A DNA stretch of 64,000 nt from Minisyncoccota bacterium (GCA_035546615.1 DASZWM010000003.1:32001-96000); one strand, 5' to 3'. Positions 20,263-33,866 are shown, counted from the first letter of the stretch. The notes: generated by a model not told the origin, from the letters alone. Numbers and translations: made by a program.

Positions 20263-20288
20263 TGCTTTGCTTTCCTGTGCCGCTTGGA

Positions 20289-20902: not shown

Positions 20903-21193
20903 CTACATCAGCTTCTTCACCTGGGACGCTATCTCGGACTCGATGCGGCCCTCGAATATCCGCCACATGAGCGGGAGCTTGGCGTCGAGCACGTAATCGG
21001 CATCGGTCACTTCCAGCTTGCCTGATATAGGTTTTCCCTGGAGCTCGACCCCGAAATGGAGCGTGTTCCCCTCCCACCGTTCTTCGGTTATTTTTGCCTG
21101 GCCGGCGATCTTCGAGCGGCCCTGCTCGATTCCGTCCTTCACCTTTTCTACAGCTTTGGACTGCGTCGTCTTGTGCGGAATGACTATATGCAT
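20903..21193 (-). CDS. Polyhydroxyalkanoate-system-like small protein (TIGR02610-like)
   Basis: 96 aa. The pattern resembles the PHA granule region family from memory. Low certainty. Confidence 0.35.
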   Translation of the reverse strand: MHIVIPHKTTQSKAVEKVKDGIEQGRSKIAGQAKITEERWEGNTLHFGVELQGKPISGKLEVTDADYVLDAKLPLMWRIFEGRIESEIASQVKKLM

Positions 21194-21242
21194 AGGCTCC
21201 TATTATACATATCCGGTACTTTCGAAACTAGAAGCCTGGCTC

Positions 21243-21524
21243 TTATTTTAGCTTTTTGCAAAAAGCTAAAATACTTTCGGCGCGGGGCGTGAGGGTATGG
21301 CGTACGTTCATCCCGTCGCTGCGCTTGTAGAGGAGCCCGGCGATAGCCATCTTGCGCAGATGGTCGGAAGCGTTCATATATCCCATCCCCAGCTTTTCCG
21401 CTATCCCCTCGATCGAGAGGCCCGGGGTCTGCTTGAGCAGATCCAATACCTGAAGGCGCCTATAGCTGGCAAAGCCTTTCACTATCCGCTCAAGCCGGCG
21501 ATATTCGCCCTGGTCTTTCGGCAT
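21243..21524 (-). CDS. ArsR/SmtB family transcriptional regulator
   Basis: HTH RLQVLDLLKQTPGLSIEGIAEKLGMGYMNASDHLRKM. The track start at 21560 is TTG; an ATG lies at 21524. Confidence 0.8.
   Translation of the reverse strand: MPKDQGEYRRLERIVKGFASYRRLQVLDLLKQTPGLSIEGIAEKLGMGYMNASDHLRKMAIAGLLYKRSDGMNVRHTLTPRAESILAFCKKLK
21246..21271. repeat. 26-bp perfect palindrome TTTTAGCTTTTTGCAAAAAGCTAAAA (copy 1 of 3) overlapping arsR stop
   Basis: Seen directly. Related copies lie at about 21551-21565 and 21609-21634. Confidence 0.8.
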
Positions 21525-21550
21525 GGCGAAGACTATATACGGTGTTTTAC

Positions 21551-21565
21551 GTTTTTGCAAAAAGC
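21551..21565. promoter_or_regulatory. Palindrome copy 2 (GTTTTTGCAAAAAGC) about 30 nt upstream of arsR ATG; candidate operator
   Basis: Seen directly. Confidence 0.5.
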
Positions 21566-21608
21566 TTTGATAAAAGGGCGGGGCGGGCGGGAACGAAAGG
21601 CTTTATCA

Positions 21609-21634
21609 CGGCTTTTTGCAAAAAGCTAAAATAA
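21609..21634. repeat. Palindrome copy 3 (GGCTTTTTGCAAAAAGCTAAAATA)
   Basis: Seen directly. Confidence 0.7.
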
Positions 21635-21647
21635 AAGAAATACATAA

Positions 21648-21671
21648 GGGAGGGAGGGAGGGAGGGAGGGA
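21648..21671 (+). repeat. (GGGA)x6 microsatellite / G-quadruplex-forming motif
   Basis: Seen directly. G3-N1 repeated six times. Confidence 0.9.
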
Positions 21672-21694
21672 GCCTTTACCTTTTTGCTTTTATT

Positions 21695-22105
21695 TTATCT
21701 GATGCGGATCCGGCGGAGGGCTTTGCGGGCTTTTTTGTAGTCCGGAATGGTCTCTTCGACCAGGGCCCAGAAGGCGGGGCTGTGGTTCATTTCCTTCAGG
21801 TGGCACAGCTCGTGGGTTACGACATATTCGGCCAGGCGCGGCGGCAAGAAAAGGAGGCGGTAGTTGAAGTTGAGGTTGCCGTGCTCCGAGCAGCTCCCCC
21901 ACCGCGAACGGCTGTTCTTTATGAATACCCGGCGCACGGCGTAGTCGTAGTGCGCGTTGAGGCGCGCGATGAGCGCATGGACAAGCGCGCGAGCCTCTTC
22001 CTTATACAGCTGGAACTTCCGCGAACTAGCCGCCGAAGCCGGGCGTCGTCTCCGTACCCGCCGCCGATATACGATTTTGTATCCAAACACCGAGGTATTG
22101 TACAA
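21695..22105 (-). CDS. YgjP-like metal-dependent hydrolase (DUF45/M48-like, HExxH)
   Basis: WGSCSEHGNLNFNYRLLFLPPRLAEYVVTHELCHLKEMNHSPAFW. TTG start, Arg-rich N-terminus. This is the last GC-rich gene before the island. Confidence 0.6.
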   Translation of the reverse strand: MYNTSVFGYKIVYRRRVRRRRPASAASSRKFQLYKEEARALVHALIARLNAHYDYAVRRVFIKNSRSRWGSCSEHGNLNFNYRLLFLPPRLAEYVVTHELCHLKEMNHSPAFWALVEETIPDYKKARKALRRIRIR

Positions 22106-22141
22106 CCTTACTTAATGGCAGGCTCAGATATAGATTTATAA

Positions 22142-22540
22142 CTACAAAATTGAGATAACTTTCTTAACGACGGAGTCTGAAGCACTCTTGAGTCGATGTT
22201 CCCATATTCTTAATACCTTCCAATTCATACTTTTTAATTGTTTATTAACCAATCTATCTCTTTTCTTATTTCTTTCTATTTTGTTAGTCCAATATGCGCG
22301 ATTTGTCTTTGGAACTCTACAGTGAGTCTTACATCCGTGCCAAAAACAAGAGTCAATGAAAATTGCTGTCTTAGAAACAGAAAAAACAATATCAGGTCTG
22401 CCTGGCAATTTTGCCACATGAGTTGTAAACTTTAGTTTACTTTTTTTCAGTTGCTTCTGAAAAGATTTTTCTATACCTGAATTTCTACTCTTAATGAGAC
22501 GCATTATTTCGCTGCGTCTTCCAGAAGATACATTGTCCAT
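22142..22540 (-). CDS. vsr: Very short patch repair endonuclease Vsr
   Basis: FIDSCFWHGC...P.TN..YW..KI..N..RD motifs. Confidence 0.9.
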   Translation of the reverse strand: MDNVSSGRRSEIMRLIKSRNSGIEKSFQKQLKKSKLKFTTHVAKLPGRPDIVFSVSKTAIFIDSCFWHGCKTHCRVPKTNRAYWTNKIERNKKRDRLVNKQLKSMNWKVLRIWEHRLKSASDSVVKKVISIL

Positions 22541-22544
22541 GCCT

Positions 22545-23612
22545 TTATTCTTCTATATCCCAACCTGTTGGAAGTGTGATTTTGGTATAGGCTCTTTCTT
22601 TGATAAAAGGGACAATCTCTGCGCTCGAAGGAAACTCTGCGTCAAATTCTCTCGTTAAATCACTTAACAAAGTGCCAGCAAGTCGTTCTCTATATTCTTT
22701 ACTGAGGCAAAGAGTATACCAGTCATGCAAATCTTTAAGAGTAATTATTCCTTGCACACGCTCAATAATCCCGAGCTGTTGTAGCAGGGCCTCAATAGGT
22801 TTCTTTTCTGCGTCTCGACAAACAATTACAATCCTGTCCGCTTCGATTCCCTCGACAATTCCTTCGGTTACTTCAGGAGTAAGTGTAAGGTGTTTTACCT
22901 GGATAGCTGTTCCAAAATTTGCCCACATATCTAATCCCCTATCCGCCGCATTCGTTACGCCAACTCTAAAAAGGGCTGCGGGCATAGCTACTTGAGTCTT
23001 TCTGGCATCTATGCCTAAAACCATTTTTATAAAACCTTCAAAATCAGTAAGTATTTCTTTGTCTTCATTTTTAATCGAAAGGGTGATTTCCGCTTTTAAT
23101 GCTCGTACAATAGCGGAAAAAAGAGCATGCACTGCTATTTCATATATTTTATCTGTGCTTCGTCTCAAGCCAGGACTTGATGTAAAAAGTTCCACTAATT
23201 CCATTATGGAAAAAGTGTCCACTGTTGACTGTTCGATATAGTCTCTTACCCGATGAACAGATAGTAACTTATTTTGTAAAGCTTTATAAATATAAGCCTC
23301 TACTCCGCCCTTACTTGTTGTATTTATTTTTCCTAACACTGCCAATAGTTGGGGCGGCATAGCATTAGGCTCAAAGATATTATCTTGGTACTTTGCGCTA
23401 GAAGTACTGCTCCTCCCAACAAGTAAGGTGGAGACTTCATCTCTCCAACGTTTAGAGACAGAGCGATAACTTTCTAGATCAGTTAGTTCTAGCTTTTTCT
23501 TAGTTCTATGATAGAAAAGTATCTCCGCTATCTGTATAGGTTTATAGAAGTGCACTCTGGCCTTCTTTATAACTGAATCCAGAGCCGCTTTTGCTTCTTC
23601 AGCCATTGACAT
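22545..23612 (-). CDS. Putative type II restriction endonuclease (family unassigned)
   Basis: The 355-aa ORF lies between the C5-MTase and vsr and overlaps the MTase stop by 14 nt. No family was identified by eye. Confidence 0.5.
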   Translation of the reverse strand: MSMAEEAKAALDSVIKKARVHFYKPIQIAEILFYHRTKKKLELTDLESYRSVSKRWRDEVSTLLVGRSSTSSAKYQDNIFEPNAMPPQLLAVLGKINTTSKGGVEAYIYKALQNKLLSVHRVRDYIEQSTVDTFSIMELVELFTSSPGLRRSTDKIYEIAVHALFSAIVRALKAEITLSIKNEDKEILTDFEGFIKMVLGIDARKTQVAMPAALFRVGVTNAADRGLDMWANFGTAIQVKHLTLTPEVTEGIVEGIEADRIVIVCRDAEKKPIEALLQQLGIIERVQGIITLKDLHDWYTLCLSKEYRERLAGTLLSDLTREFDAEFPSSAEIVPFIKERAYTKITLPTGWDIEE

Positions 23613-24621
23613 ACGCCCGTTCTACCATATTTATGTCTTTTCCGCTAAACAATTCAGTTTGTTCAATAAAAGGAACCGGGTCTTTCGACATTGCTTCAAC
23701 CATTGCGTGGGCCACTGCTTCCATCTGAGGAACCACTACAGCATTACCAGCTTGCTTCCGGATTTGCTGGTCAGCAACAACAAATTTATATGAATCGGGA
23801 AAACCCTGTAATCTAAACATCTCTCTAGGAGTCAGTCTTCTTTCTCCATTTACAATAAGATAGTTATATGAACCATTAGCCCTAAGAGCGCATGAATAAG
23901 CATTCACGCCTAGGTTTCCAGACTTATTTTCGTGCAAGATTAACGGACGAGAATGAAGTTCTTTGTGTTGTTCTTTTAATTGTCTCTGGACTTTCTGCAA
24001 CATATAATCGCTAAGAAAGTGTTTTTTATCGACCTCATTATCAGGCTCAAGGATGTCTTCAAGAGTTTTCTTTTTTCCCCTCCCTTTGGTAGGAAATTCA
24101 AAAGGGTAGTTTTCTCTAAAACCTACAATCATTATTCGCTCTCTCTTTTGCGGAACGCCAAAATCTAGACCATTTAAAACTTTAAAGTGCACAAAATAAC
24201 CTAGTTTTCTTAAACTATTTAGAATTACTGAAAACGTCCTTCCTTGATCATGATTGGTAAGTTGTTTTACATTTTCCAAAAATAGAGCTTTTGGTTTCTT
24301 TGCCTTTAGAATTCTCTCAACATCAAAAAACAACGTGCCTCTTGTTTCAGAGAAACCTTTCATATTCCCCATGATGCTAAAAGCTTGGCATGGAAAACCG
24401 CCTGTCAAAATATCATGGTCAGGCACATCTTTTGCAACTATTTTCGTTATATCTCCATCTGGCTGGTCGCCGAAATGATTCTTATACATCTTCTGCGCAG
24501 CTTCATCCCATTCTGATGTAAAAACACATTTACCTCCTGCCGCTTCAAAACCAAGTCTAATGCCTCCAATTCCTGCAAAGAGATCGATAAAAGTAAATTT
24601 ATTCTTATTCGTTGGAGCCAT
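23599..24621 (-). CDS. dcm: DNA (cytosine-5)-methyltransferase
   Basis: Motif I FIDLFAGIGG, motif IV GGFPCQAFS, motif VI ENV, motif VIII QRRERI-like. Confidence 0.95.
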   Translation of the reverse strand: MAPTNKNKFTFIDLFAGIGGIRLGFEAAGGKCVFTSEWDEAAQKMYKNHFGDQPDGDITKIVAKDVPDHDILTGGFPCQAFSIMGNMKGFSETRGTLFFDVERILKAKKPKALFLENVKQLTNHDQGRTFSVILNSLRKLGYFVHFKVLNGLDFGVPQKRERIMIVGFRENYPFEFPTKGRGKKKTLEDILEPDNEVDKKHFLSDYMLQKVQRQLKEQHKELHSRPLILHENKSGNLGVNAYSCALRANGSYNYLIVNGERRLTPREMFRLQGFPDSYKFVVADQQIRKQAGNAVVVPQMEAVAHAMVEAMSKDPVPFIEQTELFSGKDINMVERAYVNG

Positions 24622-24851
24622 AGAGCAATATATTTTAACACCTATTTTAAGCTTGCTATATTTTTAATAATAGCACTGAAATCTATATTTATACACAATA
24701 TACACAAGTCTTGGGGATAACTTTAGTGAGGGCCGTTTTTGGTCCAGGATAGCCGTATCCGCCAGCCGATAAAAATAGAGTAAGGGGGTAAAGATCAGCA
24801 ATCGTGGGATGAGCGTGTCTAATAGTCACCTAAGGATTTATAGCCATAAGG

Positions 24852-25193
24852 CTATTGTGGCAAACCCTTAATTTTGTTTCTGAAGAAATTAAATCGCATC
24901 TTAGCATAGTCCCAAAGAAAAGAGCAGAACGACTTATTTGGATGTCTTTTTATTTCACGCAAGTTCTCGAAAGCATAATTAAGTATATCTATAAATAATA
25001 ACCCTGGTACAACACCCAATGCGAATATATACCAATCAGAAAAACGTGTTTTTAACAAACTGTAAGTCGCATTTACTGCAATTCCAAGAACTACCGCAAG
25101 CGTCGCACCGAGTATCACAAATGCCCACTGTATTTGTAGACTTCTTTCCTCTTGTAAATCACCCTTGTTCATGGCGAATATATCTAATAACAA
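24852..25193 (-). CDS. Small two-TM membrane protein (candidate effector of the Ubl/E1 module)
   Basis: Two hydrophobic helices (WAFVILGATLAVVLGIAV; WYIFALGVVPGLLFIDIL). TTG at 25193 or ATG at 25172. It lies 8 nt after the upstream stop. Confidence 0.5.
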   Translation of the reverse strand: MLLDIFAMNKGDLQEERSLQIQWAFVILGATLAVVLGIAVNATYSLLKTRFSDWYIFALGVVPGLLFIDILNYAFENLREIKRHPNKSFCSFLWDYAKMRFNFFRNKIKGLPQ

Positions 25194-25201
25194 GTAAAAA
25201 A

Positions 25202-25612
25202 TTATTCGAAGAAGCTACGCAATTGGACTAATATCCAGTTTCCAAATCGTCGCCACCATGACAGGGAGGAATGAATAAAGTATGCATCCTTGATGGTATC
25301 GTCATATTCTCGCCCGTGGCGTATCTGTTCTCGAGTCATCTTCGACGCCCAAATCACTTGATTTTCAATAATCCAATAATGTGACTGACAAGGATGATTC
25401 CAGTTTCCTATTGAAGGACGTAGCGAGACCACCCCCTGCCAATCAACTAGCGTATATTCGGTCTTACGGAGAGGGGTAACGATTTTAGTGCCACAACTGC
25501 AACAGCACAAATGGCTCGCGGTTCCGAAACGTCGTGAGATATATAGAACACCACTCTCAAGCTCTCTTGGTATGAACTCAACATATTCAGGACGCACCAA
25601 CTCTGTCTTCAT
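25202..25612 (-). CDS. Cys-rich Zn-ribbon-like protein (DUF6527-like, recalled)
   Basis: HLCCCSCGTK...NHPCQSH cluster. The ATG at 25612 overlaps the E1-like gene stop (ATGA-type coupling). Confidence 0.5.
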   Translation of the reverse strand: MKTELVRPEYVEFIPRELESGVLYISRRFGTASHLCCCSCGTKIVTPLRKTEYTLVDWQGVVSLRPSIGNWNHPCQSHYWIIENQVIWASKMTREQIRHGREYDDTIKDAYFIHSSLSWWRRFGNWILVQLRSFFE

Positions 25613-26808
25613 ATACAATCCTCTTTTGTAAGGGCGTGGGTCGCAATCGTGTACAGCGAATGACGTTCTCGCACATCATCAGCATAAAAACCACACAATT
25701 GCTTCCATTTTCCCACAGCCATGGCAGCATTTAGCATATTTAGGTCCGCAACCTGCATATTACGGTACACCGCCTCGGCCGGCACTTTTGCAAATGAAAC
25801 AACTTCCGCAATATGTCCATGATGGTCGGGTGTTCCAACTGTAAAGCGACACTGTCCGCGCAGAGACGCCTGATTATCGAGTGCCAAGTCTATTCCAACG
25901 TCTATGAACGGCACACCAAGAGCAATAAGGCCATTAAGTATGTTCTTCCGGCTCTCTCCGTCGTCGATAGCAACAAACACGAAGTCGAACCCGGACAGCT
26001 CGTGGAGATGCGCGTCCTGGACATAGTAGGGATGACGCTTCAAGCCCTTGTGTATACGTTCGTATATACCACTGAACCAATCCACTTTTAGTGGATTGTT
26101 AAGCTCCTGCTTCATCGGAGCACCCGGTGCTCTAAACGCGTTGTGGAGTTCGAACGTATCCCCATCGAAAATGTGGATTTCTTTCACCGGCGTCTTAGCA
26201 ACAAGGTCGAGAATATACGAACCAGTACCACCTAGTCCTATAATCGCCACCCGACTTGCAAGGAGTTTCGCCGTGGCCGCTCCAATACCAGCACGGGTTG
26301 TTGCCATATCAGGATAATGGAATGCGAGTTCCTGAGCTTCGACTACCGCCGGTACTGGTTTTTCACTTCGTGGATCGCAAGTCCGATCAATTGCTTGAGC
26401 TTCGTGCCAAATCAGACGAACATATGTCCAGATTTTTTCGTAGTAGTCGGCATACTTGCGCTTATCAGCGTGCACACGCGAGAAGGCGACAGTCGTCTTA
26501 ATCCCATCGCCCTTATCCTCCTCAGCGTTGTTCGAAATCATCTCCGTCATTAGTTGACCATCCGCGTTGTGCGGGGGTTCTCCAATCCACCAACACTGAT
26601 GGTTGGAACATGGATTCACTGTCTTTCCGGCCGCATCAATTTCAAGTGGGCAATAGAGAATTCCAGGCACTATTTTGCCTTCAGAGGTAACAGCAGGAAT
26701 TCCCTCAATTAAAAGATGAGAGGCAGTCCCTTGAATGACCCGGAGACGAAAACCTTCCGCCTCCAACTTTGCCAAATCGGCATTATGACTTATCCGTATT
26801 TCTGACAT
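25609..26808 (-). CDS. E1-like ThiF/MoeB-fold enzyme with ~165-aa N-terminal domain of unknown fold
   Basis: VAIIGLGGTGSYILDLVAKTPVKEIHIFDGDTFELHNAFR is a ThiF nucleotide-binding motif. The N-terminal domain has conserved-looking C/H residues (YCPLE, NPCSNHQCWW, PPHN). Confidence 0.8.
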   Translation of the reverse strand: MSEIRISHNADLAKLEAEGFRLRVIQGTASHLLIEGIPAVTSEGKIVPGILYCPLEIDAAGKTVNPCSNHQCWWIGEPPHNADGQLMTEMISNNAEEDKGDGIKTTVAFSRVHADKRKYADYYEKIWTYVRLIWHEAQAIDRTCDPRSEKPVPAVVEAQELAFHYPDMATTRAGIGAATAKLLASRVAIIGLGGTGSYILDLVAKTPVKEIHIFDGDTFELHNAFRAPGAPMKQELNNPLKVDWFSGIYERIHKGLKRHPYYVQDAHLHELSGFDFVFVAIDDGESRKNILNGLIALGVPFIDVGIDLALDNQASLRGQCRFTVGTPDHHGHIAEVVSFAKVPAEAVYRNMQVADLNMLNAAMAVGKWKQLCGFYADDVRERHSLYTIATHALTKEDCI

Positions 26809-27040
26809 CGAAGTTCATATGATCGACCACATCTACACTTTGGCCCCGGCGAAGCGATCCTTCGTGTCCACCTGGCTTAGTCCATGAAACGCTGTAGCGA
26901 ACATCGCCTCCGAACGGACCAGTTGGGAATGCGAGCTTGATGACTTGCTCGTAGCTAATATCGTGTTCACCCCACTTCTCTTGAATACCGTTCACAACAA
27001 TGCTTATGGTGTGTCCATGCCCTTTATTATCGTCTGCCAT
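26783..27040 (-). CDS. Multiubiquitin-like beta-grasp protein (85 aa, no C-terminal GG)
   Basis: ISIVVNG...ISYEQVIKLAFP...RYSVSW...GQSVDVVDHMNFDVR matches, from memory, the multiubiquitin domain pattern of prokaryotic E1/E2 operons. It overlaps the E1-like gene start by 26 nt. Confidence 0.5.
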   Translation of the reverse strand: MADDNKGHGHTISIVVNGIQEKWGEHDISYEQVIKLAFPTGPFGGDVRYSVSWTKPGGHEGSLRRGQSVDVVDHMNFDVRNTDKS

Positions 27041-27224
27041 ATAATTTTAATTGTCGGCTTTTTAATTTAAGTGCGGCACCGGTCGACCGCACTTGTATCG
27101 TACACCCATTTCTGATACCCTTGCAAGGTAACTAGATGTATCAAATGTTACCTAAAGTACCATATTTGTTATATCTGATACCTGTTGTTACAACCTATAA
27201 CAAGTTACGCACAGATTTCAAATC

Positions 27225-27584
27225 ATGAGAAAATCATCCGCTACAATAAACAATGAAAGCAGATCCACAGAGCTTGAAATCCGGAAAGAGATTGGCAGAC
27301 GTATCGCTGAAATGCGTAGCAAACTGGGGCTTACAGCTCGCCTTGTTGCCAAAGAACTTCATGTCTCACGCGAAGCCATTACTCACATTGAAACAGGGCG
27401 AAACAATATATCTGCCGTATCGCTGTGGGAATTGGCGACTCTCTTCCATTGTGATATTGCTGATTTTTTCCCTGATATTCCTAATGGATATTCTTTAACT
27501 AGGGTCGATATTAATAAAGTAGCACAAATGAGTGGAAAGACAGGGGCGGCATGGGCTGAAAAGATTTTTGGGAAAAAGAAATAA
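27225..27584 (+). CDS. XRE-family HTH transcriptional regulator (CapH/ImmR-like)
   Basis: HTH_3 signature IGRRIAEMRSKLGLTARLVAKELHVSREAITHIETGRNNIS. Confidence 0.85.
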   Translation: MRKSSATINNESRSTELEIRKEIGRRIAEMRSKLGLTARLVAKELHVSREAITHIETGRNNISAVSLWELATLFHCDIADFFPDIPNGYSLTRVDINKVAQMSGKTGAAWAEKIFGKKK

Positions 27585-27588
27585 ATAT

Positions 27589-28083
27589 ATGATGTCAGAA
27601 AGAATTGAGAAAAAAGCGGAGGAAGTCTTAAGCGCACTGAATGTTAAGTCAATACCTATCTCTGTTGAAGAAATCGCGAATCAATTAAAGATCAAGATAG
27701 GAAGAGCACCTAGTAGTGAATTTTCTGGAATGTTGATTCGAAAAGATGGTCGAGCACTTATGGGTATAAATAACAGTGAAGGCACTGCGAGACAACGATT
27801 CACTATTGCGCATGAACTTGGGCATTATTTCTTACATCCACAAAATGATACTTTTGTAGACTATAGGCAGAACGAAAAAGAACCAAGAAATCATAGAGAA
27901 CGAGAGGCTGATATGTTTGCAGCAGCACTCTTAATGCCTAGGAAAGAAGTAACAAAAGACTTTCAGAAAATTGTTAGGAAAGGATTTTCAGAAATTGAAC
28001 TTCACAAACTGGCAGGAAAATATGAAGTGAGCGACAAAGCAATGAGATTTAGGTTAGTAAACTTAAATATGCTATTAGGTTAA
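27589..28083 (+). CDS. ImmA/IrrE family Zn-metallopeptidase (CapP/ImmA-like)
   Basis: HELGHYFLH HExxH motif in the COG2856 fold context. It lies immediately downstream of the XRE gene. Confidence 0.85.
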   Translation: MMSERIEKKAEEVLSALNVKSIPISVEEIANQLKIKIGRAPSSEFSGMLIRKDGRALMGINNSEGTARQRFTIAHELGHYFLHPQNDTFVDYRQNEKEPRNHREREADMFAAALLMPRKEVTKDFQKIVRKGFSEIELHKLAGKYEVSDKAMRFRLVNLNMLLG

Positions 28084-28087
28084 GATT

Positions 28088-28348
28088 TTATTGTCTACTC
28101 CCTTGTGATCCTAATCTATCCGTAAAAGGTCCCTCACGATGGGCCGCCGGATCTACATCCTTTTTTGTAATAACCTGGGGAAAGCGGGTATTTTCTTCAA
28201 TCTGCTCTAGTAACGTGACTATTCTGTTCAATTTCCAGTACCAGGTAAGGATTTCCCTGATCAGGAGGAATATCAGAGCGCCCACGCATAGGACAAAAAC
28301 GATATTTGGTAGCTGGGACCAGTAATATTGAAATAAGGGTTGAAGCAT
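28088..28348 (-). CDS. Small membrane protein (one TM helix), downstream partner of AbrB-like gene
   Basis: IVFVLCVGALIFLLI helix. Coordinates are from the track. Confidence 0.4.
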   Translation of the reverse strand: MLQPLFQYYWSQLPNIVFVLCVGALIFLLIREILTWYWKLNRIVTLLEQIEENTRFPQVITKKDVDPAAHREGPFTDRLGSQGSRQ

Positions 28349-28351
28349 ATA

Positions 28352-28540
28352 TTACTTCTTCCAGTCGCGGATTATCAGCTTCTTTCTCTTCAGATCCACC
28401 TCTACGGTGAGCTTTTGGCGCTCTTTCCACTTGAACTTGCGGATAGCCTCCACCGGAAGCGCGACCGTATAGGTACTTCCCCGCCCCGTCTTGGTGAGCT
28501 TGCGGACCTGCTTTTTCTGCCCCGCCTTCGGCCGTGCCAT
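28352..28540 (-). CDS. AbrB/MazE/SpoVT-like small DNA-binding protein (candidate antitoxin)
   Basis: VRKLTKTGRGSTYTVALPVEAIRKFKWKERQKLTVEV resembles the looped-hinge helix fold. Confidence 0.45.
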   Translation of the reverse strand: MARPKAGQKKQVRKLTKTGRGSTYTVALPVEAIRKFKWKERQKLTVEVDLKRKKLIIRDWKK

Positions 28541-28600
28541 GCGGATATGATACCACCGAACTCCTGAGCTAACTCAAGAGTTAGCTCAGGAGTTAATTAA

Positions 28601-28627
28601 AAACCGGCGCCTGGGGCGCCGGTTTGG
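28601..28627. terminator. Bidirectional intrinsic terminator at the island's right edge
   Basis: AAAAACCGGCGCC-TGGG-GCGCCGGTTT. Confidence 0.6.
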
Positions 28628-28642
28628 CCAAGGTTGGCCGGA

Positions 28643-28918
28643 TTACTGAAGCGTGGGGCTGGAGCGGGTCTCGCTTATAGCCCAGTTGCCGTACAGGGTA
28701 TCGAGCTCGAGCTTGAGCTGCACGACCCGCTCGACCATCCCGACGTCTACGACGCGGAGATTAATCATAAAGGCCTCGGCATTGCGTATCGCCGCTTTGA
28801 TCTCCTTCTTCTTCGCGATGATCTCGGGCGGGAGCCGCCGCTTCCCGCTGTGGAAATCTCCGGCAAGCCGGATCATTGTCCGCGCCTCGTCGGGAGTAAG
28901 TACCCGATACTGATCCAA
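28643..28918 (-). CDS. Hypothetical protein
   Basis: A 91-aa ORF with protein-like composition in a GC-rich context. Confidence 0.4.
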   Translation of the reverse strand: MDQYRVLTPDEARTMIRLAGDFHSGKRRLPPEIIAKKKEIKAAIRNAEAFMINLRVVDVGMVERVVQLKLELDTLYGNWAISETRSSPTLQ

Positions 28919-28983
28919 AGCCTCTCTCCTGTCTTATAAGCGGCCACCCGCTTTCGGGTACGATACTAGCATCGAAAAAAGAA

Positions 28984-29016
28984 ATAAAACAGGCCCGCGG
29001 CTTGCGCCGCGGGCCT
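28984..29016 (-). terminator. Intrinsic terminator downstream of 29040..29465
   Basis: GGCCCGCGGC-GCAA-GCCGCGGGCC followed by TTTTATTTCTTTTTT on the minus strand. Confidence 0.6.
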
Positions 29017-29039
29017 CTTGTCTGCCTAACTCCGTGGAG

Positions 29040-29465
29040 TTAGGACCTCTTCCCTGCCGGCTCCATGTAGAAGATCCAGAACTCCAGCGACGAATTGCCG
29101 ACATCCACCATCCAGCCGTGGGCGTACTCGTCGCCGTTATTCACCACGCCGTAGTCGATGTTTACTTTCCCGACCTGGACCGGACCGACCTGGTTGAGGC
29201 CGCAGCGGGGATAGCCGCGAGCGTCGACCTCCTGGTGATACACGGTGTATAGCGCCGTGCTTTCGGCCGGATCCCGATAGCGGGCGTCCAGGAGGGTCTT
29301 CAGATCTTCCTGAGATTTGCACCACAGGACCGGCTGGCGGAACCAACCGTAAAATTCCTCGCCCGGCGGCTGCGCCGAGACGGGAGCTACGAGGCACGCC
29401 ATGCACGCGAGAGCAATCAAAGAACGGTTGAACATCTTGGACCTCGTTGGTTGGTCCTTGGACAT
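29040..29465 (-). CDS. Secreted hypothetical protein
   Basis: Signal peptide MFNRSLIALACMACLVAPVSA from the internal ATG at 29435. Confidence 0.5.
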   Translation of the reverse strand: MSKDQPTRSKMFNRSLIALACMACLVAPVSAQPPGEEFYGWFRQPVLWCKSQEDLKTLLDARYRDPAESTALYTVYHQEVDARGYPRCGLNQVGPVQVGKVNIDYGVVNNGDEYAHGWMVDVGNSSLEFWIFYMEPAGKRS

Positions 29466-29530
29466 CCTCTCTGCCTACACCTTTTTTCGTCCTTGGGAGG
29501 ACATACCGATTGTATGACGTCTTGTGCCGA

Positions 29531-29559
29531 TGGCAAATAGTCCGCGCTTTTGCTAGAGT
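29531..29559 (+). promoter_or_regulatory. Promoter copy 1: TGGCAA-N17-TAGAGT
   Basis: Seen directly. Shares GCGCTTTTGCTA with copy 2. An AGGAGA SD and an ATG at 29590 follow. Confidence 0.5.
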
Positions 29560-29589
29560 ACTGGCTGGCACGAACAACAGGAGACGCGG

Positions 29590-29961
29590 ATGATCAATTG
29601 CCTTATGGTCCGGGGCACCGGCATCACGAACAGCATGTCGAGCCTTCTCTACCGGACCGCCATGCAGATGGTGCAGGAAAAGAAAAGCTCGAAGAAGTTC
29701 AAGGGCGGCGACTGCCAGGGCGTCCTTTCGACAGAATGGAAGTACGCCGGCATGGGCACGATATCGGGCCTGCAGTTCAGCGCGAAGGTGGAGAGCGCGG
29801 CGGGTACGACCGAGGTTACGTTCATCATCCGCTCGCTGGACCTGGACGAACCGGATGACGACTCGTGGGAAGCGGTACCCGACCAGGAGACGTTCGACCG
29901 CTACGCGGTTGCGGACGCGCTCGAAGAGCGGGACGCGATTCCCAGATCCAGGCTCAACTGA
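29590..29961 (+). CDS. Hypothetical protein
   Basis: ATG with a good SD (AGGAGA). 123 aa. Confidence 0.45.
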   Translation: MINCLMVRGTGITNSMSSLLYRTAMQMVQEKKSSKKFKGGDCQGVLSTEWKYAGMGTISGLQFSAKVESAAGTTEVTFIIRSLDLDEPDDDSWEAVPDQETFDRYAVADALEERDAIPRSRLN

Positions 29962-30020
29962 TGCGGATTGCTCCCGCCGAAAAAGCCCCGCGCGCCCCAC
30001 GGCGCGCGGGGCTTTCTGCA

Positions 30021-30049
30021 TGGCAAACGGCCCGCGCTTTTGCTACAGT
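30021..30049 (+). promoter_or_regulatory. Promoter copy 2: TGGCAA-N17-TACAGT
   Basis: A near-identical 35-nt element (ATGGCAAA..CCGCGCTTTTGCTA.AGTAC.GG) to copy 1. Confidence 0.5.
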
Positions 30050-30081
30050 ACGGGCGGATAGAAACTTGAGGAGTGCAGCTG

Positions 30082-30666
30082 ATGACACTAAAGAAGATGC
30101 AGATACTGCTTCCCAGGGGCTTTGTCGATCCGACGGGCCCCGGGATGAAAGACGTGCCGCTCTTCTTTTTGGGCGGGCCGGTGCGCGGCGGCGGAGACTG
30201 GCAGTCGAGAATGGCAATCATGCTGGCCGAGATGGTAGATGGCGACTGCCTGATAGCTATCCCTGCGCGGTGGAACGGAGACCATTGCCTGGCGCATCGC
30301 GTTACACCGACGGACAGGAAGTCAGACTTTCCGCGCCAGCTCAACTGGGAGCGATACTACCTGAACCATGCGGGATTCCATCCGCGCCCGGGATGCGTCG
30401 TTTTCTGGCTCGCAGTCCAGCGGGAATCCCGGCCGGCCGAAGACGGGCCGTACGCCCAGGACACCTACGGGGAGGTTGGCGAGTGGCGAGGGCGCATGAT
30501 GTACAACCCGTCGATACGCTTCGTCGCGGGAGCGGAAGCGACGTTCCCCGGCCTGGATGTCATCCAGCGCAACTTCAATATGGCGCTTAACCGCGAGTTC
30601 CCGATCTATAAGACGATGGAGGAAACCGCGGCGGCGGCCGTGAAAGCGGCGCTGGCGCAAGCGTAA
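30082..30666 (+). CDS. Nucleoside 2-deoxyribosyltransferase-like protein (tentative)
   Basis: The N-terminal VPLFFLGGPVRGGGDWQ resembles the Nuc_deoxyri_tr2-like Rossmann start. An ATG with a GAGGAG SD (the track uses GTG at 30073). Confidence 0.4.
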   Translation: MTLKKMQILLPRGFVDPTGPGMKDVPLFFLGGPVRGGGDWQSRMAIMLAEMVDGDCLIAIPARWNGDHCLAHRVTPTDRKSDFPRQLNWERYYLNHAGFHPRPGCVVFWLAVQRESRPAEDGPYAQDTYGEVGEWRGRMMYNPSIRFVAGAEATFPGLDVIQRNFNMALNREFPIYKTMEETAAAAVKAALAQA

Positions 30667-30676
30667 GGAGGAAACG

Positions 30677-30865
30677 ATGGAACAATGGATGGCGTACCTG
30701 CAAGAGCAAGAGGCGCAGGCCAAAGCGATGGTCGAGAACGCCGTTCCTGCGAACTGGGAAGATTTCCTGCTCCAGAATAAGCTTCTTATCGCGGCGGCGA
30801 TGTTTGCCGTAGCCTGGTTCCTACTGATGCCTGACTGGCTGAAGGACTGGTTCCGCGGGAAATAG
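30677..30865 (+). CDS. Small membrane protein
   Basis: AGGAGG SD, 62 aa, one TM helix. Confidence 0.45.
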   Translation: MEQWMAYLQEQEAQAKAMVENAVPANWEDFLLQNKLLIAAAMFAVAWFLLMPDWLKDWFRGK

Positions 30866-30882
30866 CGCTGTAGAAAAGGAAA

Positions 30883-30925
30883 TCGCCGCGGGCTTCCCAG
30901 CCCGCGGCGTTCTTTGTTTATTTAG
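30883..30925 (+). terminator. Intrinsic terminator
   Basis: GCCGCGGGC-TTCCCA-GCCCGCGGC followed by TTCTTTGTTTATTT. Confidence 0.55.
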
Positions 30926-31222
30926 TGCACCGTGCCGACGAGCGACTGCGCGAAATGGAGCACGAGCTCAAGCATCGAAATGAGGAAATTTATGAACAGC
31001 GTGAGCAGGCTGAGCAGGAAGCCCAGGATGAGATCAAGGATATGCGTTATGAAATCCATGGAACCAGTATACACCGCTCTTTTCCCTATATCAGGAATGA
31101 GTTTTGCAAAAATCGATGAGATGCAAGGCGCGGGCGAGGCTCGGACCGAGCAATAGGCCGCCTATTGTGAGGGAGACCCGCAGCCCGCAACGCGGCAGGT
31201 CGCGATTTTTGCGAAACGCAAG

Positions 31223-31882
31223 CTACTCCCAGGTGGTGGTACCGGTCCCGCCTATCGGAAACTGCGGCCCCAGATACTTGGGTACGCGATAGAACATGAT
31301 GTCGAGCTGGGCTTTGATGGTTGCAGGGGCTTCGCGCGCGTAGTTGTACAGCGACACGCCGTCGGCTCCCGCCTCAACGCCTATGGCCTGAAGACCCAGG
31401 CGCCGCGCAATGTAGACCGCGCGCGGCAGATGGAACGCCTGCGTCACTACGGTTACCGACGTGATCCCGAACACGTCGCGGGCGCGGTACATGCTCGAGT
31501 AGGTATCGAAGCCCGCATGGTCGAGGAATATGTCCTCCCCCGGCACGCCCGCGGCCAGGAGGTAGCGGCGCACGGGCTCGACCTCGTTGTGACTGAGCGT
31601 GCTGTTGTCGCCGGTCATGAGGATCTTGGCAATCTTCCCCGCCTGATAGAGCTCCACCGCCTTGTCCACGCGCTCGCGCAGGACCGGCGACAGCGTGCCG
31701 TCCCGCATGACCGATGCGCCCAGCACGAGGGCAGCCTGCGTCTGCGGCGCAGAGGAGACGCTCTTGTATATGTACTCGCGCGCGCTCAGCTGAACCGGAA
31801 GGTACAGGGACAGCGCAACGCAAAGCCCGGCAAGGACCGCTCCGGCTATGTAGTGCCACCATCGCATATATCCAGTATACAA
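31223..31882 (-). CDS. SanA/YdcF (DUF218) family protein
   Basis: Membrane anchor plus DUF218 core (ALVLGASV...ILMTGDNS...DHAGFDTY...TQAFHLPRA). Confidence 0.75.
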   Translation of the reverse strand: MYTGYMRWWHYIAGAVLAGLCVALSLYLPVQLSAREYIYKSVSSAPQTQAALVLGASVMRDGTLSPVLRERVDKAVELYQAGKIAKILMTGDNSTLSHNEVEPVRRYLLAAGVPGEDIFLDHAGFDTYSSMYRARDVFGITSVTVVTQAFHLPRAVYIARRLGLQAIGVEAGADGVSLYNYAREAPATIKAQLDIMFYRVPKYLGPQFPIGGTGTTTWE

Positions 31883-31986
31883 GGTCGGGGTATTTTTACT
31901 TTAAAGCGCGCGCGTGGTATAGAAGAAAGAGACTTGCGTTCGCCCTATATACCCCTACTCACACCGAAAGACGAGGAGGACTTATA

Positions 31987-32520
31987 TTGTTCACCCAAGG
32001 CATATACGTACCGCACCGGGAGTCCGGACCGGACAGGATATGGGCCGGCAAGCCCGTGCTCCTGTGCGGAGCGCTGGAGCTCTCCCGCACCGTGGAGGAA
32101 AATCTGGCCCAGATCCGCACCCAGGCTATCGACATGGAAGCCGTTCGCCCGTTCGCGGGCGGGAAGAAGCGCTACGCCGTCGAGTTCCTGATGCTCGGGC
32201 AGAAGGCGGCCTTCTACGGCGAAGACAGCCTGCGCAGGCAGATACACAAGAGCCGGCTGGCCCAGTGCAAGGGCAAGACGATAGCGCTGTCCCTCGGCTC
32301 CCCGGGCCGCGTGCGGGTCATCGCGCGAGGCGTGCTTGAATCAGTGGAGGGCGAGTACGTTACCGTCTCGAGAGGCATCCTCTCGCGGGTGAACGGGCAT
32401 CGCATCAGCAGGACCCCGAAGCCGGAGGAGCCGAAGCGCGGCCGCGGCGACCTGTTCTTCAAGCTCCGCAAGGTCGTGGACATTTACCTGCCGGAACCCC
32501 CCGCCGAAGCGCCGGCTTAG
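31987..32520 (+). CDS. Hypothetical protein (TTG start)
   Basis: A GAGGAGGA SD lies 8 nt before the TTG at 31987. The track ORF is extended upstream into the SanA gene. Confidence 0.4.
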   Translation: MFTQGIYVPHRESGPDRIWAGKPVLLCGALELSRTVEENLAQIRTQAIDMEAVRPFAGGKKRYAVEFLMLGQKAAFYGEDSLRRQIHKSRLAQCKGKTIALSLGSPGRVRVIARGVLESVEGEYVTVSRGILSRVNGHRISRTPKPEEPKRGRGDLFFKLRKVVDIYLPEPPAEAPA

Positions 32521-32585
32521 GCGCAGCGAGCACGAACGAAAGGCCGCCCTCCAGGAGGGCGGCCTTTTCCTTTACCTTCTTTAAT

Positions 32586-33455
32586 TTACCTGCCGAGCAC
32601 GAGGCTGCGGCGGATGAAGTCGAACTCGGTGACGAGCTTCGCCTTGTCAAACGCGGTTACCGTGCCCTCCGGATAGTTCCCTAGTTGCGTTGAGTGTATG
32701 TAGTAGCGCACCGCGGTGCACGGATTGGTCCCGGGTATGGAGAACACCGCTTCGTCGTAGAGGTTGCCCGCGCCCGCGCCGCTTGAAGTAGCGGCCGAGT
32801 AATCGACGCCCGAATCGCTGAAGGTTATCGCCTTGCCGCCGTCCAGGAAGGACGTTGCGAGACACGCGCTATTTCCCGGAAGCCACTCAACGCTGATGTA
32901 GGAATCTTTAGACAGGTTGGTGCCTTGCGCGCTCGAGGCGGGAATGGTGAACTTCACGCCCGAAATATTCTTGCCCGGGCCGAGCGCCTGGTACGTATAG
33001 GGCGCGGCCGTGTAGCCCGCCGGGAAGCGGAGGCTGAAGCCCGCGGTCGAGGTCGCGTATACCTGGTTGAGAAGCCCTGTGGCGTCCGGAGCGACCATGA
33101 CGCAGCCGCTGTAGGTCTCCTGCTGGGAGGCGCCCTCCTCTACGAAGGCGGTATTGCCTTTGCCCCAGAAGACGAAGCTCTCGTCCTGATTGGCATAGCG
33201 GATGCCCGAACCCGAAACGGCCTGCGGGAGCGCCATGGTGCGGCCGTCGCTGAGGCTGAGCGCCACGCTCCCCTCAAAAAATGCCGCGCTGATGGAGCGG
33301 CCCGCGTCGCACGCGAATGCGGCGGTCGCGACCGGCTGGGGGCCCGCGGCCGTGTCGGCGGGCGCAGCGGACTTCGTGCCCGCGAAATACCACCACCCTG
33401 CGCCGAGGACGGCGATGAGCGCGACGACGACTATTACTGCTGTTGATGTTTTCAT
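32586..33455 (-). CDS. Exported hypothetical protein (GAGWWYF anchor)
   Basis: N-terminus MKTSTAVIVVVALIAVLGAGWWYF, paralogous to the 20289 gene. Probably beta-rich. Confidence 0.55.
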   Translation of the reverse strand: MKTSTAVIVVVALIAVLGAGWWYFAGTKSAAPADTAAGPQPVATAAFACDAGRSISAAFFEGSVALSLSDGRTMALPQAVSGSGIRYANQDESFVFWGKGNTAFVEEGASQQETYSGCVMVAPDATGLLNQVYATSTAGFSLRFPAGYTAAPYTYQALGPGKNISGVKFTIPASSAQGTNLSKDSYISVEWLPGNSACLATSFLDGGKAITFSDSGVDYSAATSSGAGAGNLYDEAVFSIPGTNPCTAVRYYIHSTQLGNYPEGTVTAFDKAKLVTEFDFIRRSLVLGR

Positions 33456-33493
33456 GATGAGAAAATGATAAGTAAATAACTGCCGCCGAGGCG

Positions 33494-33865
33494 CTACCCT
33501 TCAGCCTGCGCCCCTGCGCGTGAAGCGCGCGTGAGCATCAGGGCGAGAGCGATGCCTGCTATAGATACGTCGCGGAAGAGCGTGTCGAAGCCGTGCAGGT
33601 GCGTGCCGACGATAGCGAGCAAGGTCAGCAGGGCCAGCGCGCACGGCCAGATTATCTTCCAGCCTGAGAGTATCCAGAGCGCGATGACGGCCTCGAACAA
33701 CCCGAACCCGTGGAGCAGTACCGCGTCGGGCACGATGCCGTGCATGAAGCCGGGAAAATAGCCGAGCCAGGTGTCCGGATCCCGCAGGGCATCCAGCGGC
33801 GGATACAGGAACGCGAAGGCCAGCGATGCGCGCAAGACCAGATCGCTCAAGCGGCCGAGGTTCAT
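33494..33865 (-). CDS. Integral membrane protein
   Basis: Four predicted TM helices. Confidence 0.45.
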   Translation of the reverse strand: MNLGRLSDLVLRASLAFAFLYPPLDALRDPDTWLGYFPGFMHGIVPDAVLLHGFGLFEAVIALWILSGWKIIWPCALALLTLLAIVGTHLHGFDTLFRDVSIAGIALALMLTRASRAGAQAEG

Positions 33866-33866
33866 A

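What the first reader, a model, noticed from the sequence alone, without database searches (positions are those of the whole stretch)
27041..28083. CapH/CapP- or ImmR/ImmA-like HTH plus metallopeptidase switch divergent from the Ubl/E1 operon, with multiple operator-like inverted repeats
An XRE HTH (27225-27584) is immediately followed by an ImmA/IrrE-type Zn-metallopeptidase (HELGHYFLH, 27589-28083). Both are transcribed away from the Ubl/E1 operon across a 184-bp AT-rich intergenic region.

That region contains:
- AAGTGCGG-N10-CCGCACTT (about 27069-27094), a GC-rich hairpin in an AT-rich background.
- AGGTAAC-N14-GTTACCT (about 27126-27153).
- TTGTTA-N7-TAACAA (about 27185-27203).
- A direct repeat TCTGATACC at about 27111 and about 27174.

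This is the architecture of the DNA-damage-responsive repressor/protease pairs that gate CBASS (CapH/CapP) and ICEBs1 (ImmR/ImmA). It implies the adjacent module is kept silent and derepressed on stress.
Basis: partly seen in the sequence, partly recalled or inferred. Interest (0 to 1): 0.75.

Follow-up and report, generated by a model that had tools for sequence, protein, structure and literature searches.

The report
CapH/CapP switch guarding a Bub operon
This is a repressor plus zinc-protease gene pair of a published type (CapH/CapP) sitting head-to-head with a bacterial ubiquitin-like "Bub" operon; the pairing is ordinary, but the control region holds a conserved array of repressor sites and a possibly new folded RNA leader.

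Summary
An XRE HTH gene (27225-27584) is followed by an intact 164-aa M78 Zn-peptidase gene (27589-28083). Both diverge across 184 bp from a Multi_ubiq / DUF6791-ThiF / DUF6527 operon, which is a Type II Bub operon.

The CapH/CapP reading is supported but already published: 168 of 544 Bub operons carry CapH+CapP (PMC11601596; Lau 2022).

About 40 distinct related loci refine three points:

- **Operators.** The real operators are three 15-bp dyads, GKTAY-N5-RTAMC, at 27147, 27168 and 27187. A weaker fourth lies at 27128 and a half-site at 27115-27119. The motif is about 4,500-fold enriched upstream of capH.
- **GC hairpin.** The hairpin at 27069-27094 is not an operator. It starts where the bubA transcript is predicted to start, varies with compensating changes, and its loop can pair with 27054-27058 to form a pseudoknot. 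Rfam has no match.
- **Peptidase.** It lacks the GAF domain of characterised CapP/IrrE and is ImmA-sized, so its activating signal is open.

Verdict: a new member of a known kind, of modest interest. The leader RNA is the only possibly new element.

The parts
27225..27584 (+). capH-like XRE helix-turn-helix repressor, 119 aa. The HTH spans about residues 22-82; a conserved C-terminal tail spans 83-119.
   Evidence: Pfam HTH_3, E 4e-10. PADLOC capH, E 3.5e-5. It is 55-69% identical to 60 metagenome relatives, each followed by the same peptidase.
27589..28083 (+). capP-like M78 Zn-metallopeptidase, 164 aa. It has the peptidase domain and a helical linker, but no GAF domain and no cysteine.
   Evidence: Pfam Peptidase_M78, E 3e-23. 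PADLOC capP, E 3e-38, covering profile positions 3-153 of 242. H75, E76, H79 and E104 are invariant. AF2 pLDDT 87; best PDB matches are 7T5T CapP and then IrrE/PprI, with TM-scores normalised to the target of 0.38-0.45.
27147..27161 (.). Operator OA, GTTACCTAAAGTACC (dyad GKTAY-N5-RTAMC).
   Evidence: One of only 3 matches to the pattern in the 64-kb window, against 0.39 expected. Half-site columns carry up to 2.0 bits and spacer columns 0.2-1.1 bits across 34 loci.
27168..27182 (.). Operator OB, GTTATATCTGATACC. It overlaps a -35-like TTGTTA (27166-27171) of the inferred capH promoter.
   Evidence: The promoter assignment is inference.
27187..27201 (.). Operator OC, GTTACAACCTATAAC. Its left half plus spacer reads TATWnT in most relatives, which is an inferred capH -10 (27189-27194).
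   Evidence: The promoter assignment is inference.
27128..27142 (.). Weaker fourth dyad O0, GTAACTAGATGTATC (consensus GKAAY-N5-RTAMC). It abuts the -35 of the bub promoter.
   Evidence: Moderate column conservation, 0.5-1.4 bits.
27115..27119 (.). Orphan half-site ATACC inside the spacer of the bub promoter.
   Evidence: Conservation of 1.0-1.8 bits per position across 34 loci.
27097..27126 (-). Predicted bub promoter. Read on the minus strand, the -35 is TTGCAA (27121-27126) and the -10 is TACGAT (27097-27102), with an 18-nt spacer.
   Evidence: The TTG of the -35 and the T, A, A, T positions of TAnnAT are the most conserved non-operator columns (1.4-2.0 bits). The generic scan did not report it because it scores 8 of 12 against a threshold of 9. 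No experimental transcription start site is available.
27041..27094 (-). bubA leader. Stem S1 pairs 27087-27094 with 27069-27076. Candidate pseudoknot stem S2 pairs the loop at 27078-27082 with 27054-27058. An A-rich linker lies between them.
   Evidence: The core of S1 starts 6-8 nt after the -10 in the 14 loci inspected by eye (sequences printed). 95% of cells are paired, 6 pairs change on both sides, slid controls give 19-42%, and 0 of 500 shuffles reach the observed value. S2 was not part of the search model. There is no Rfam match. The window's own S2 forms only 4 of 5 pairs.
24852..27040 (-). Controlled cargo, a Type II Bub operon: bubA (26783-27040), bubBD E2-E1 fusion (25609-26808), bubE/DUF6527 (25202-25618), and an orphan 113-aa membrane ORF (24852-25193).
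   Evidence: Pfam Multi_ubiq, DUF6791+ThiF and DUF6527. NCBIfam PRK06153.1-3 scores 422 bits against a cutoff of 340. The definition of Type II Bub comes from PMC11601596. The membrane ORF has no homologue.

Best explanation
The two genes form a CapH/CapP-type (ImmR/ImmA-like) repressor-protease cassette. It controls a divergent Type II Bub (bacterial ubiquitination-like) operon on a horizontally acquired low-GC defence island.

**Proposed mechanism.**
1. Dimers of the HTH protein bind cooperatively to an array of 15-bp dyads, GKTAY-N5-RTAMC. The dyads are spaced 19-21 bp apart, about two helical turns, so they lie on one face of the DNA.
2. OB and OC lie over the inferred capH promoter, giving autorepression.
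3. O0 and a half-site flank the -35 of the bub promoter, repressing the cargo.
4. On a stress signal, the Zn-peptidase cleaves the repressor's C-terminal region. This breaks oligomerisation and DNA binding and switches on both promoters.
5. The bubA transcript begins with a conserved hairpin or pseudoknot just upstream of the ribosome-binding region. This probably adds a post-transcriptional layer, acting on mRNA stability or translation.

**Shown here:** gene identities, the architecture and its recurrence, the operator motif with its enrichment and phasing, conserved promoter hexamers, and base-pair covariation in the leader.

**Inferred:** DNA binding, cleavage, the nature of the signal, which promoter is repressed, and the function of the RNA.
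For: - **Domains and catalytic residues:**
- **Closest solved structures:** CapP, then IrrE/PprI.
- **Recurrence of the pair with divergent cargo:** the 2 closest genome loci carry it. Among 40 distinct close loci, 22 show a clear Bub II operon; 7 more, on truncated contigs, show partial BubBD or BubA only.
- **Conserved spacing:** the bubA-capH distance is about 180-190 bp in most Bub-linked loci where the bubA start is unambiguous.
- **Operator motif:** 3 matches in the 64-kb window, all in this region. There are 78 matches in 3.7 kb upstream of capH against 2 in 423 kb elsewhere. Half-sites are conserved while spacers vary.
- **Leader RNA:**
- **Published mechanism for the family:** CapH binds its promoter, CapP cleaves the CapH C-terminal domain at F82/R83, and ssDNA activates CapP. 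CapH+CapP is found at 168 of 544 Bub operons.
Against: - The peptidase lacks the GAF domain. In PprI the essential ssDNA-binding patch includes residues R207 and R267. By my own mapping of the IrrE domain layout, not stated in the retrieved text, these lie in the GAF-like domain. The ssDNA or DNA-damage trigger therefore cannot be transferred directly.
- The three strongest dyads lie upstream of the bub -35, centred at about -64, -85 and -104 from the predicted start. They lie over the capH promoter rather than the bub promoter. Only the weaker O0 and a half-site touch the bub promoter.
- The HTH is only weakly CapH-like by sequence (PADLOC E 3.5e-5), and no CapH chain appears among the PDB hits at E <= 1.
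- The structure of its C-terminal domain could not be modelled with confidence (pLDDT 50).
- No promoter passed the generic scan.
- Bub operons have no demonstrated anti-phage phenotype (PMC13373217).
Confidence: 0.8

Rival explanations
1. The cassette regulates only itself, or is a stand-alone Xre/COG2856 toxin-antitoxin-like pair. The Bub operon would then be expressed independently.
For: The three strongest operators overlap the inferred capH promoter, not the bub core promoter. PDB entry 7T5T is deposited as 'CapP toxin'. The same cassette sits next to several unrelated cargoes.
Against: The divergent arrangement and the roughly 185-bp spacing to the cargo start are conserved. The bub -35 is flanked by a conserved half-site and by O0. 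Published reporters show that CapH represses its divergent cargo. A cassette that swaps cargo while keeping the promoter and leader is what a portable controller should look like.
Confidence: 0.1
2. It is an ImmR/ImmA immunity module of an integrative element or prophage, controlling excision rather than defence.
For: The peptidase is ImmA-sized and lacks a GAF domain. The locus lies in a low-GC island inside a roughly 60% GC genome.
Against: No integrase-sized or excisionase ORF stands out in the ORF list for 20000-34000, but not every ORF there was scanned against Pfam. The divergent genes are Bub genes. Only one weak relative was found in 2.9 million viral contigs.
Confidence: 0.04
3. The HTH is the controller (C) protein of the neighbouring HaeII-like restriction-modification system.
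For: PDB hits include C.BclI and C.AhdI. PADLOC 'control protein' models hit weakly. A HaeII restriction enzyme, a C5 methylase and Vsr lie at 22142-24621.
Against: The HTH is 2.6 kb from the restriction-modification genes, with the Bub operon in between. It is always paired with the peptidase. Most related loci have no restriction-modification genes.
Confidence: 0.02
4. The GC hairpin and its loop partner are DNA-level sites for a second protein, or chance, rather than an RNA structure.
For: In the window the hairpin alone is not exceptional: folding z-score -1.6 and inverted-repeat P = 0.08. The window's S2 forms 4 of 5 pairs, including one G-U. Only about 17 of 40 distinct loci carry the motif. 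The sequences are related, so the shuffle controls overstate significance.
Against: All four S1 pairs and two S2 pairs change on both sides while staying paired. S2 was not in the search model and is 95% paired, against 19-42% when the partners are slid. The stem starts at the predicted +1 in the 14 loci inspected. By my count, G-U pairs (about 9) outnumber A-C mismatches (about 5) on the mRNA strand.
Confidence: 0.4

Closest known systems
CapH/CapP (E. coli MS115-1 / Thauera sp. K11 CBASS regulators; Lau et al. 2022)
   Same: An XRE HTH is followed by an HExxH M78 peptidase, and both are divergent from the controlled defence operon. The best solved-structure match is CapP 7T5T. The association with '6e'/Bub operons is already reported.
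   Different: The peptidase here is 164 aa, with no GAF domain and no cysteine-switch loop. The repressor has an N-terminal extension of about 20 aa and is only weakly similar to CapH. The operators are an array of 3-4 dyads rather than the single 22-bp site described.
ImmR/ImmA of ICEBs1 and phage phi105
   Same: A GAF-less M78 peptidase, similar in size to ImmA as I recall it (about 170 aa; from memory, not retrieved here), is paired with an XRE repressor. Derepression by repressor cleavage is the expected logic.
   Different: There is no integrase or excisionase context and the cargo is a Bub operon. The PDB match of the HTH to the ImmR N-terminal domain is insignificant (E 0.12).
DdrO/IrrE (PprI) of Deinococcus
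   Same: The same peptidase fold (Foldseek E about 3e-5) and the same cleavage-of-repressor logic.
   Different: IrrE has a GAF-like domain that contributes to ssDNA sensing. It acts as a global regulator through RDRM sites, not as a local divergent cassette.
Type II Bub operon (BubA, BubBD, BubE; Ye et al. 2024/2026)
   Same: The gene order and Pfam domains match: Multi_ubiq, DUF6791-ThiF and DUF6527. There is no JAB peptidase.
   Different: BubA is a short 85-aa protein with a single beta-grasp domain. An extra orphan 113-aa membrane ORF follows bubE. The host is a Paceibacterota (CPR) MAG.
Small H-type pseudoknot leaders such as preQ1-I or SAM-II riboswitches (resemblance in geometry only, from memory)
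   Same: A 5' hairpin whose loop pairs with a segment just upstream of the ribosome-binding site, joined by an A-rich linker of 11-15 nt.
   Different: There is no sequence or covariance-model match to any Rfam 15 family. No ligand is implied by the context.

Membership tests
CapH/CapP | An XRE HTH gene immediately upstream of, and co-oriented with, an M78 (HExxH) peptidase gene. | tested here: met
   The HTH stop codon is at 27584 and the peptidase start at 27589. The same order is seen in nearly all of about 140 related loci.
CapH/CapP | The pair is encoded upstream of, and on the opposite strand to, the controlled operon. | tested here: met
   The feature is as stated by Lau 2022.
CapH/CapP | Intact catalytic site: HExxH plus a downstream Glu ligand. 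| tested here: met
   H75, E76, H79 and E104 are invariant in 24 homologues.
CapH/CapP | Three-domain CapP: peptidase, HTH-like linker and C-terminal GAF domain. | tested here: not met
   The protein is 164 aa. The PADLOC capP profile is covered only over positions 3-153 of 242. The AF2 model ends after the helical linker. TM-scores normalised to the target are 0.38-0.45. All 120 best homologues are 162-184 aa long.
CapH/CapP | Cysteine-switch loop (present in 33% of CBASS CapP proteins, so optional). | tested here: not met
   The protein contains no cysteine (translation).
CapH/CapP | A repressor C-terminal oligomerisation domain that carries the cleavage site. | tested here: inconclusive
   A conserved 37-aa C-terminal tail is present. 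The single-sequence AF2 model has pLDDT 50, with two short C-terminal helices.
CapH/CapP | The repressor binds the promoter region of the associated operon. | not testable with these tools
   Indirect support only: conserved, phased dyads that are about 4,500-fold enriched upstream of capH.
CapH/CapP | The peptidase is activated by ssDNA or DNA damage. | not testable with these tools
   The GAF domain is absent. The essential ssDNA patch of PprI includes R207 and R267. Placing those residues in the GAF-like domain is my own mapping, not stated in the retrieved text.
ImmR/ImmA (ICEBs1-type) | A short GAF-less M78 peptidase paired with an XRE repressor. | tested here: met
ImmR/ImmA (ICEBs1-type) | Sits in an integrative element next to an integrase and controls an excisionase or transfer promoter. 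| tested here: not met
   No integrase-sized or excisionase ORF stands out in the ORF list for 20000-34000, though not every ORF was scanned against Pfam. The divergent genes are Bub genes.
Type II Bub operon | BubA ubiquitin-like protein, BubBD E2-E1 fusion and BubE (DUF6527), with no JAB peptidase. | tested here: met
   Pfam PF14452, PF20590+PF00899 and PF20137. The definition is from PMC11601596.
Any Rfam 15 RNA family (for the bubA leader) | A covariance-model match at or near the gathering score. | tested here: not met
   The best hits score 10-16 bits against gathering thresholds of 34-80 bits, with E > 1.

The most novel reading that the evidence does not exclude
The 'GC hairpin' may be the 5'-terminal stem of a previously undescribed pseudoknotted leader RNA of about 45 nt. 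It would travel with this GAF-less CapH/CapP cassette in front of different cargoes: Bub II, a type-I-like Bub operon, and DUF1508+M23. It would give the cassette a second, post-transcriptional checkpoint, acting through mRNA stability, translation, or possibly ligand or protein sensing.
Probability: 0.4. Interest if true: 0.6.

Novelty: new member of a known kind. Interest (0 to 1): 0.33.

Why it matters
The locus is a clean natural example of how a costly or toxic defence module is kept silent by a portable repressor-protease cassette.

The operator consensus (GKTAY-N5-RTAMC in 3-4 copies, phased at about 20 bp) and the promoter map give exact probes and mutations for EMSA and reporter work on Bub regulation. 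The biological role of Bub operons is still unknown.

Two open points could be tested directly:
- What activates a CapP that has no GAF domain.
- Whether the conserved leader pseudoknot adds an RNA-level control to defence-operon expression.

The host is a CPR bacterium (Paceibacterota) with a roughly 60% GC genome, and the island is 37-50% GC. This documents horizontal spread of the whole cassette.

Tried and rejected
- **Rfam.** Searches of the window region and of L089 gave nothing near threshold.
- **Promoter and terminator scan.** The generic scan found no site. Promoters were instead inferred from conservation. The hairpin is not a terminator, because no T-run follows it on either strand.
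- **First covariance model.** Model R1 was too sequence-specific. Rebuilding it as R2 recovered four independent members (L081, L083, L085, L086) but none among the 78 more distant CapP loci.
- **CapH structure.** The single-sequence AF2 model of the HTH protein was too poor to judge the C-terminal domain.
- **Viral contigs.** Only one weak relative of the peptidase was found.
- **113-aa membrane ORF.** It has no homologue in 5.8 billion proteins. It is not similar to the membrane proteins that end the type-I-like Bub operons.
- **NCBIfam.** It gives no specific name to either regulator.
- **Restriction-modification controller reading.** Considered and rejected on position and co-occurrence.

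Full report
**What is there**

The finding lies in a low-GC island (about 22.1-28.4 kb, 36-50% GC) inside a contig of roughly 57-66% GC. NCBI names the source a Candidatus Paceibacterota MAG.

On the plus strand are two genes:
- A 119-aa XRE HTH gene at 27225-27584 (HTH_3, E 4e-10).
- Five bases later, a 164-aa M78 peptidase gene at 27589-28083 (Peptidase_M78, E 3e-23).

On the minus strand, across 184 bp of 36% GC DNA, are four genes:
- An 85-aa Multi_ubiq protein at 26783-27040.
- A 399-aa DUF6791+ThiF protein at 25609-26808.
- A 138-aa DUF6527 protein at 25202-25618.
- A 113-aa membrane ORF at 24852-25193.

Further along the minus strand come a C5 methylase, a HaeII-type endonuclease and Vsr.

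The Multi_ubiq / E2-E1 fusion / DUF6527 set without a JAB peptidase is exactly the published Type II Bub operon, BubA-BubBD-BubE (PMC11601596).

**The observation**

A single 8-bp inverted repeat is not unusual in a shuffled 184-bp region (P = 0.08). The number of inverted repeats with arms of at least 6 bp is unusual (9 against a mean of 1.5, P = 0.0005).

**The proteins**

The peptidase:
- It matches the PADLOC capP model at E 3e-38, but only over profile positions 3-153 of 242.
- Its best solved relative by sequence is CapP 7T5T (E 3e-7), then IrrE/PprI.
- An AF2 model built on 24 homologues (pLDDT 87) gives the same ranking by fold. TM-scores are about 0.6 normalised to the query but only 0.38-0.45 normalised to the targets.
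- The model contains the peptidase domain and a helical linker and then stops.
- The 120 best homologues are all 162-184 aa and 56-67% identical across several phyla.
- H75, E76, H79 and E104 are invariant.

So this is an intact, conserved, GAF-less CapP/IrrE-type peptidase. From memory rather than from retrieved sources, it is about the size of ImmA. It has no cysteine, and therefore no cysteine switch of the kind seen in a third of CBASS CapP proteins.

The HTH protein is only weakly CapH-like by sequence (PADLOC capH E 3.5e-5; no CapH chain among PDB hits). It has a conserved 37-aa C-terminal tail. A single-sequence AF2 model was too poor (pLDDT 50) to say whether the tail is a CapH-like two-helix oligomerisation domain.

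**Related loci**

A genome scan with the peptidase alignment returned 80 loci. A metagenome scan with the HTH alignment returned 60 loci that are 41-69% identical, most of them 55-69%.

- In nearly all loci the HTH gene directly precedes the peptidase gene.
- Among 40 distinct close loci, 22 have a clear divergent Bub II operon. Seven more, on truncated contigs, show a partial BubBD or BubA only.
- The remainder carry other cargo in the same position:
  - type-I-like Bub genes (Prok-E2_E plus an E1);
  - DUF2188 plus an M23 peptidase;
  - DUF1508/YegP plus an M23 peptidase;
  - a weak Cas2-like gene.
- These cargo types match those listed for CapH/CapP and CapK/CapS cassettes in the literature.
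- The distance from the bubA start to the capH start is about 180-190 bp in most Bub-linked loci where the bubA start is unambiguous.

**The operators**

Aligning the region upstream of capH from 34 distinct loci shows the whole intergenic region is a conserved module.

Three 15-bp dyads, G[GT]TA[TC]-N5-[AG]TA[AC]C, sit at about -80, -60 and -40 from the capH ATG. In the window they are:
- OA, 27147-27161;
- OB, 27168-27182;
- OC, 27187-27201.

These are the only three matches to the pattern in the 64-kb window, against 0.39 expected.

Across 41 distinct loci the pattern occurs 78 times in 3.7 kb of -105..-15 sequence. It occurs twice in 423 kb of the remaining sequence on both strands, roughly a 4,500-fold enrichment.

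Half-site columns carry 1-2 bits while the five spacer columns are mostly close to random. That is the expected signature of a dimeric HTH site.

A weaker fourth dyad, O0 (27128-27142, GKAAY-N5-RTAMC), and a conserved orphan half-site ATACC (27115-27119) extend the array. Start-to-start spacing is 19, 21 and 19 bp.

- AGGTAAC-N14-GTTACCT joins the left halves of O0 and OA.
- TTGTTA-N7-TAACAA is OC.
- TCTGATACC is the right half of OB plus the orphan half-site.

**Promoters (inferred from conservation)**

On the minus strand, the TTG of a -35 (27124-27126; hexamer TTGCAA at 27121-27126) and the T, A, A, T positions of a TAnnAT -10 (TACGAT, 27097-27102) are the most conserved non-operator columns. 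They lie 16-18 nt apart. The generic scan missed this promoter because it scores 8 of 12.

- O0 abuts this -35, and the half-site lies in the spacer.
- For capH, a TTGTTA (27166-27171) within OB and a TATWnT-like hexamer (27189-27194; TACAAC in the window) within OC are 17 nt apart.
- The strongest operators therefore cover the capH promoter. The bub promoter is touched only by the weaker sites. For this reason I keep 'autoregulation only' as a rival at about 0.1.

**The GC hairpin**

The core of the stem begins 6-8 nt after the predicted -10 in the 14 loci I inspected by eye (sequences). That places it at the expected first transcribed base. No T-run follows it on either strand, so it is not a terminator.

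- Its stem sequence differs between loci while staying paired: GUGCGG/CCGCAC, GCAG/CUGC, GUGG/CCAC, GCGA/UCGC, ACAG/CUGU.
- Its loop carries CCAGC (CCGGU in the window). This can pair with GCUGG (GCCGA in the window) 11-15 nt downstream, just before the ribosome-binding region. The result is an H-type pseudoknot topology.

I built a covariance model containing only the hairpin from seven sequences. It found the window's element at 27040-27097 (E 0.06). A second model recovered four further independent members at the correct position. It found none in the 78 more distant CapP loci.

On that alignment:
- 95% of cells pair.
- All four hairpin pairs and two of five pseudoknot pairs change on both sides.
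- 0 of 500 shuffles reach the observed covariation.
- Sliding the partners by 1-3 columns gives 19-42% pairing.

The pseudoknot helix was not part of the model.

Caveats:
- The sequences are related.
- The window's own S2 forms only 4 of 5 pairs, one of them G-U.
- The hairpin alone folds at z = -1.6.
- Only about 17 of 40 distinct loci carry the motif.

Rfam 15 has no match. The motif is also present ahead of non-Bub-II cargo (L118/L121, L093, L081). It therefore belongs to the regulatory cassette rather than to Bub.

**How it most likely works**

I follow the published CapH/CapP mechanism. The repressor binds the promoter, oligomerisation is needed for binding, the peptidase cuts the C-terminal domain, and ssDNA activates the peptidase.

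On that basis the HTH protein is proposed to occupy the phased dyads, silencing both divergent promoters until the peptidase inactivates it.

The trigger is the weakest link. In PprI the essential ssDNA-binding patch is R85/R207/R267 (PMC10904395). By my own mapping of the IrrE domain layout, R207 and R267 fall in the GAF-like domain. This peptidase has no such domain.

**Comparison and novelty**

- The architecture, the cargo and their association are all published: Lau 2022 for '6e' systems, Ye et al. for 168 of 544 Bub operons, and the 2026 EMBO J paper.
- The locus is a new member of a known kind, in an unusual host.
- The operator consensus and promoter map are useful details but not conceptually new.
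- The GAF-less peptidase is a variant worth noting.
- The leader pseudoknot is the only candidate for something undescribed. I give it about 0.4 probability of being a functional RNA element.

Overall interest is 0.33.

Noticed in passing
window 27041-27094 (minus strand); also L002:6449-6502, L089:3816-3872, L121:3754-3811 and others: A conserved 5'-terminal hairpin has a loop that can pair with a segment 11-15 nt downstream, giving an H-type pseudoknot in the leader of the cargo's first gene. It shows compensatory changes, has no Rfam match, and is present in about 17 of 40 distinct close loci, including ones whose cargo is not Bub II.
   Followed up: yes
window 24852-25193 (-): A 113-aa ORF that looks hydrophobic and membrane-spanning by eye starts 8 bp after bubE. 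It has no homologue among 5.8 billion proteins except itself. It is absent from all related loci and is unrelated to the multi-pass membrane proteins that end the type-I-like Bub operons in L090 and L122.
   Followed up: partly
window 22142-24621 (-): A HaeII-type restriction endonuclease, a C5 cytosine methylase and a Vsr mismatch endonuclease lie directly downstream of the Bub operon in the same low-GC island (about 22.1-28.4 kb, 36-50% GC against roughly 57-66% in the flanks). The published CapK/CapS work also notes restriction-modification systems next to such cassettes.
   Followed up: partly
L104:2887-3826, L121:2739-3628, L090:1394-3590, L122:1366-3802, L105:1060-1326: The same closely related repressor-protease cassette with the same dyads drives other cargoes: DUF2188 plus M23 peptidase; DUF1508/YegP plus SH3-M23 peptidase; a small protein plus Prok-E2_E plus an E1 plus a membrane protein of 131-136 aa; and a weak Cas2-like gene.
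   Followed up: partly
window 27202-27224: capH has no recognisable Shine-Dalgarno sequence and a predicted leader of only about 23 nt. A block GTTnYnCACA (27204-27213) after OC is conserved across loci and remains unexplained. It starts with another GTTAC half-site.
   Followed up: no
L002:6449-6470 and L118:3754-3775 (minus strand): In two loci the 3' strand of the candidate pseudoknot reads GCTGGTGG, which from memory is the E. coli Chi sequence. Other loci differ, so this is probably coincidence.
   Followed up: no
window 28088-28540 (-): Two small ORFs of 86 aa and 62 aa sit at the GC-content boundary just past capP. They have no Pfam or PADLOC assignment of note and no counterpart downstream of capP in related loci.
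   Followed up: no
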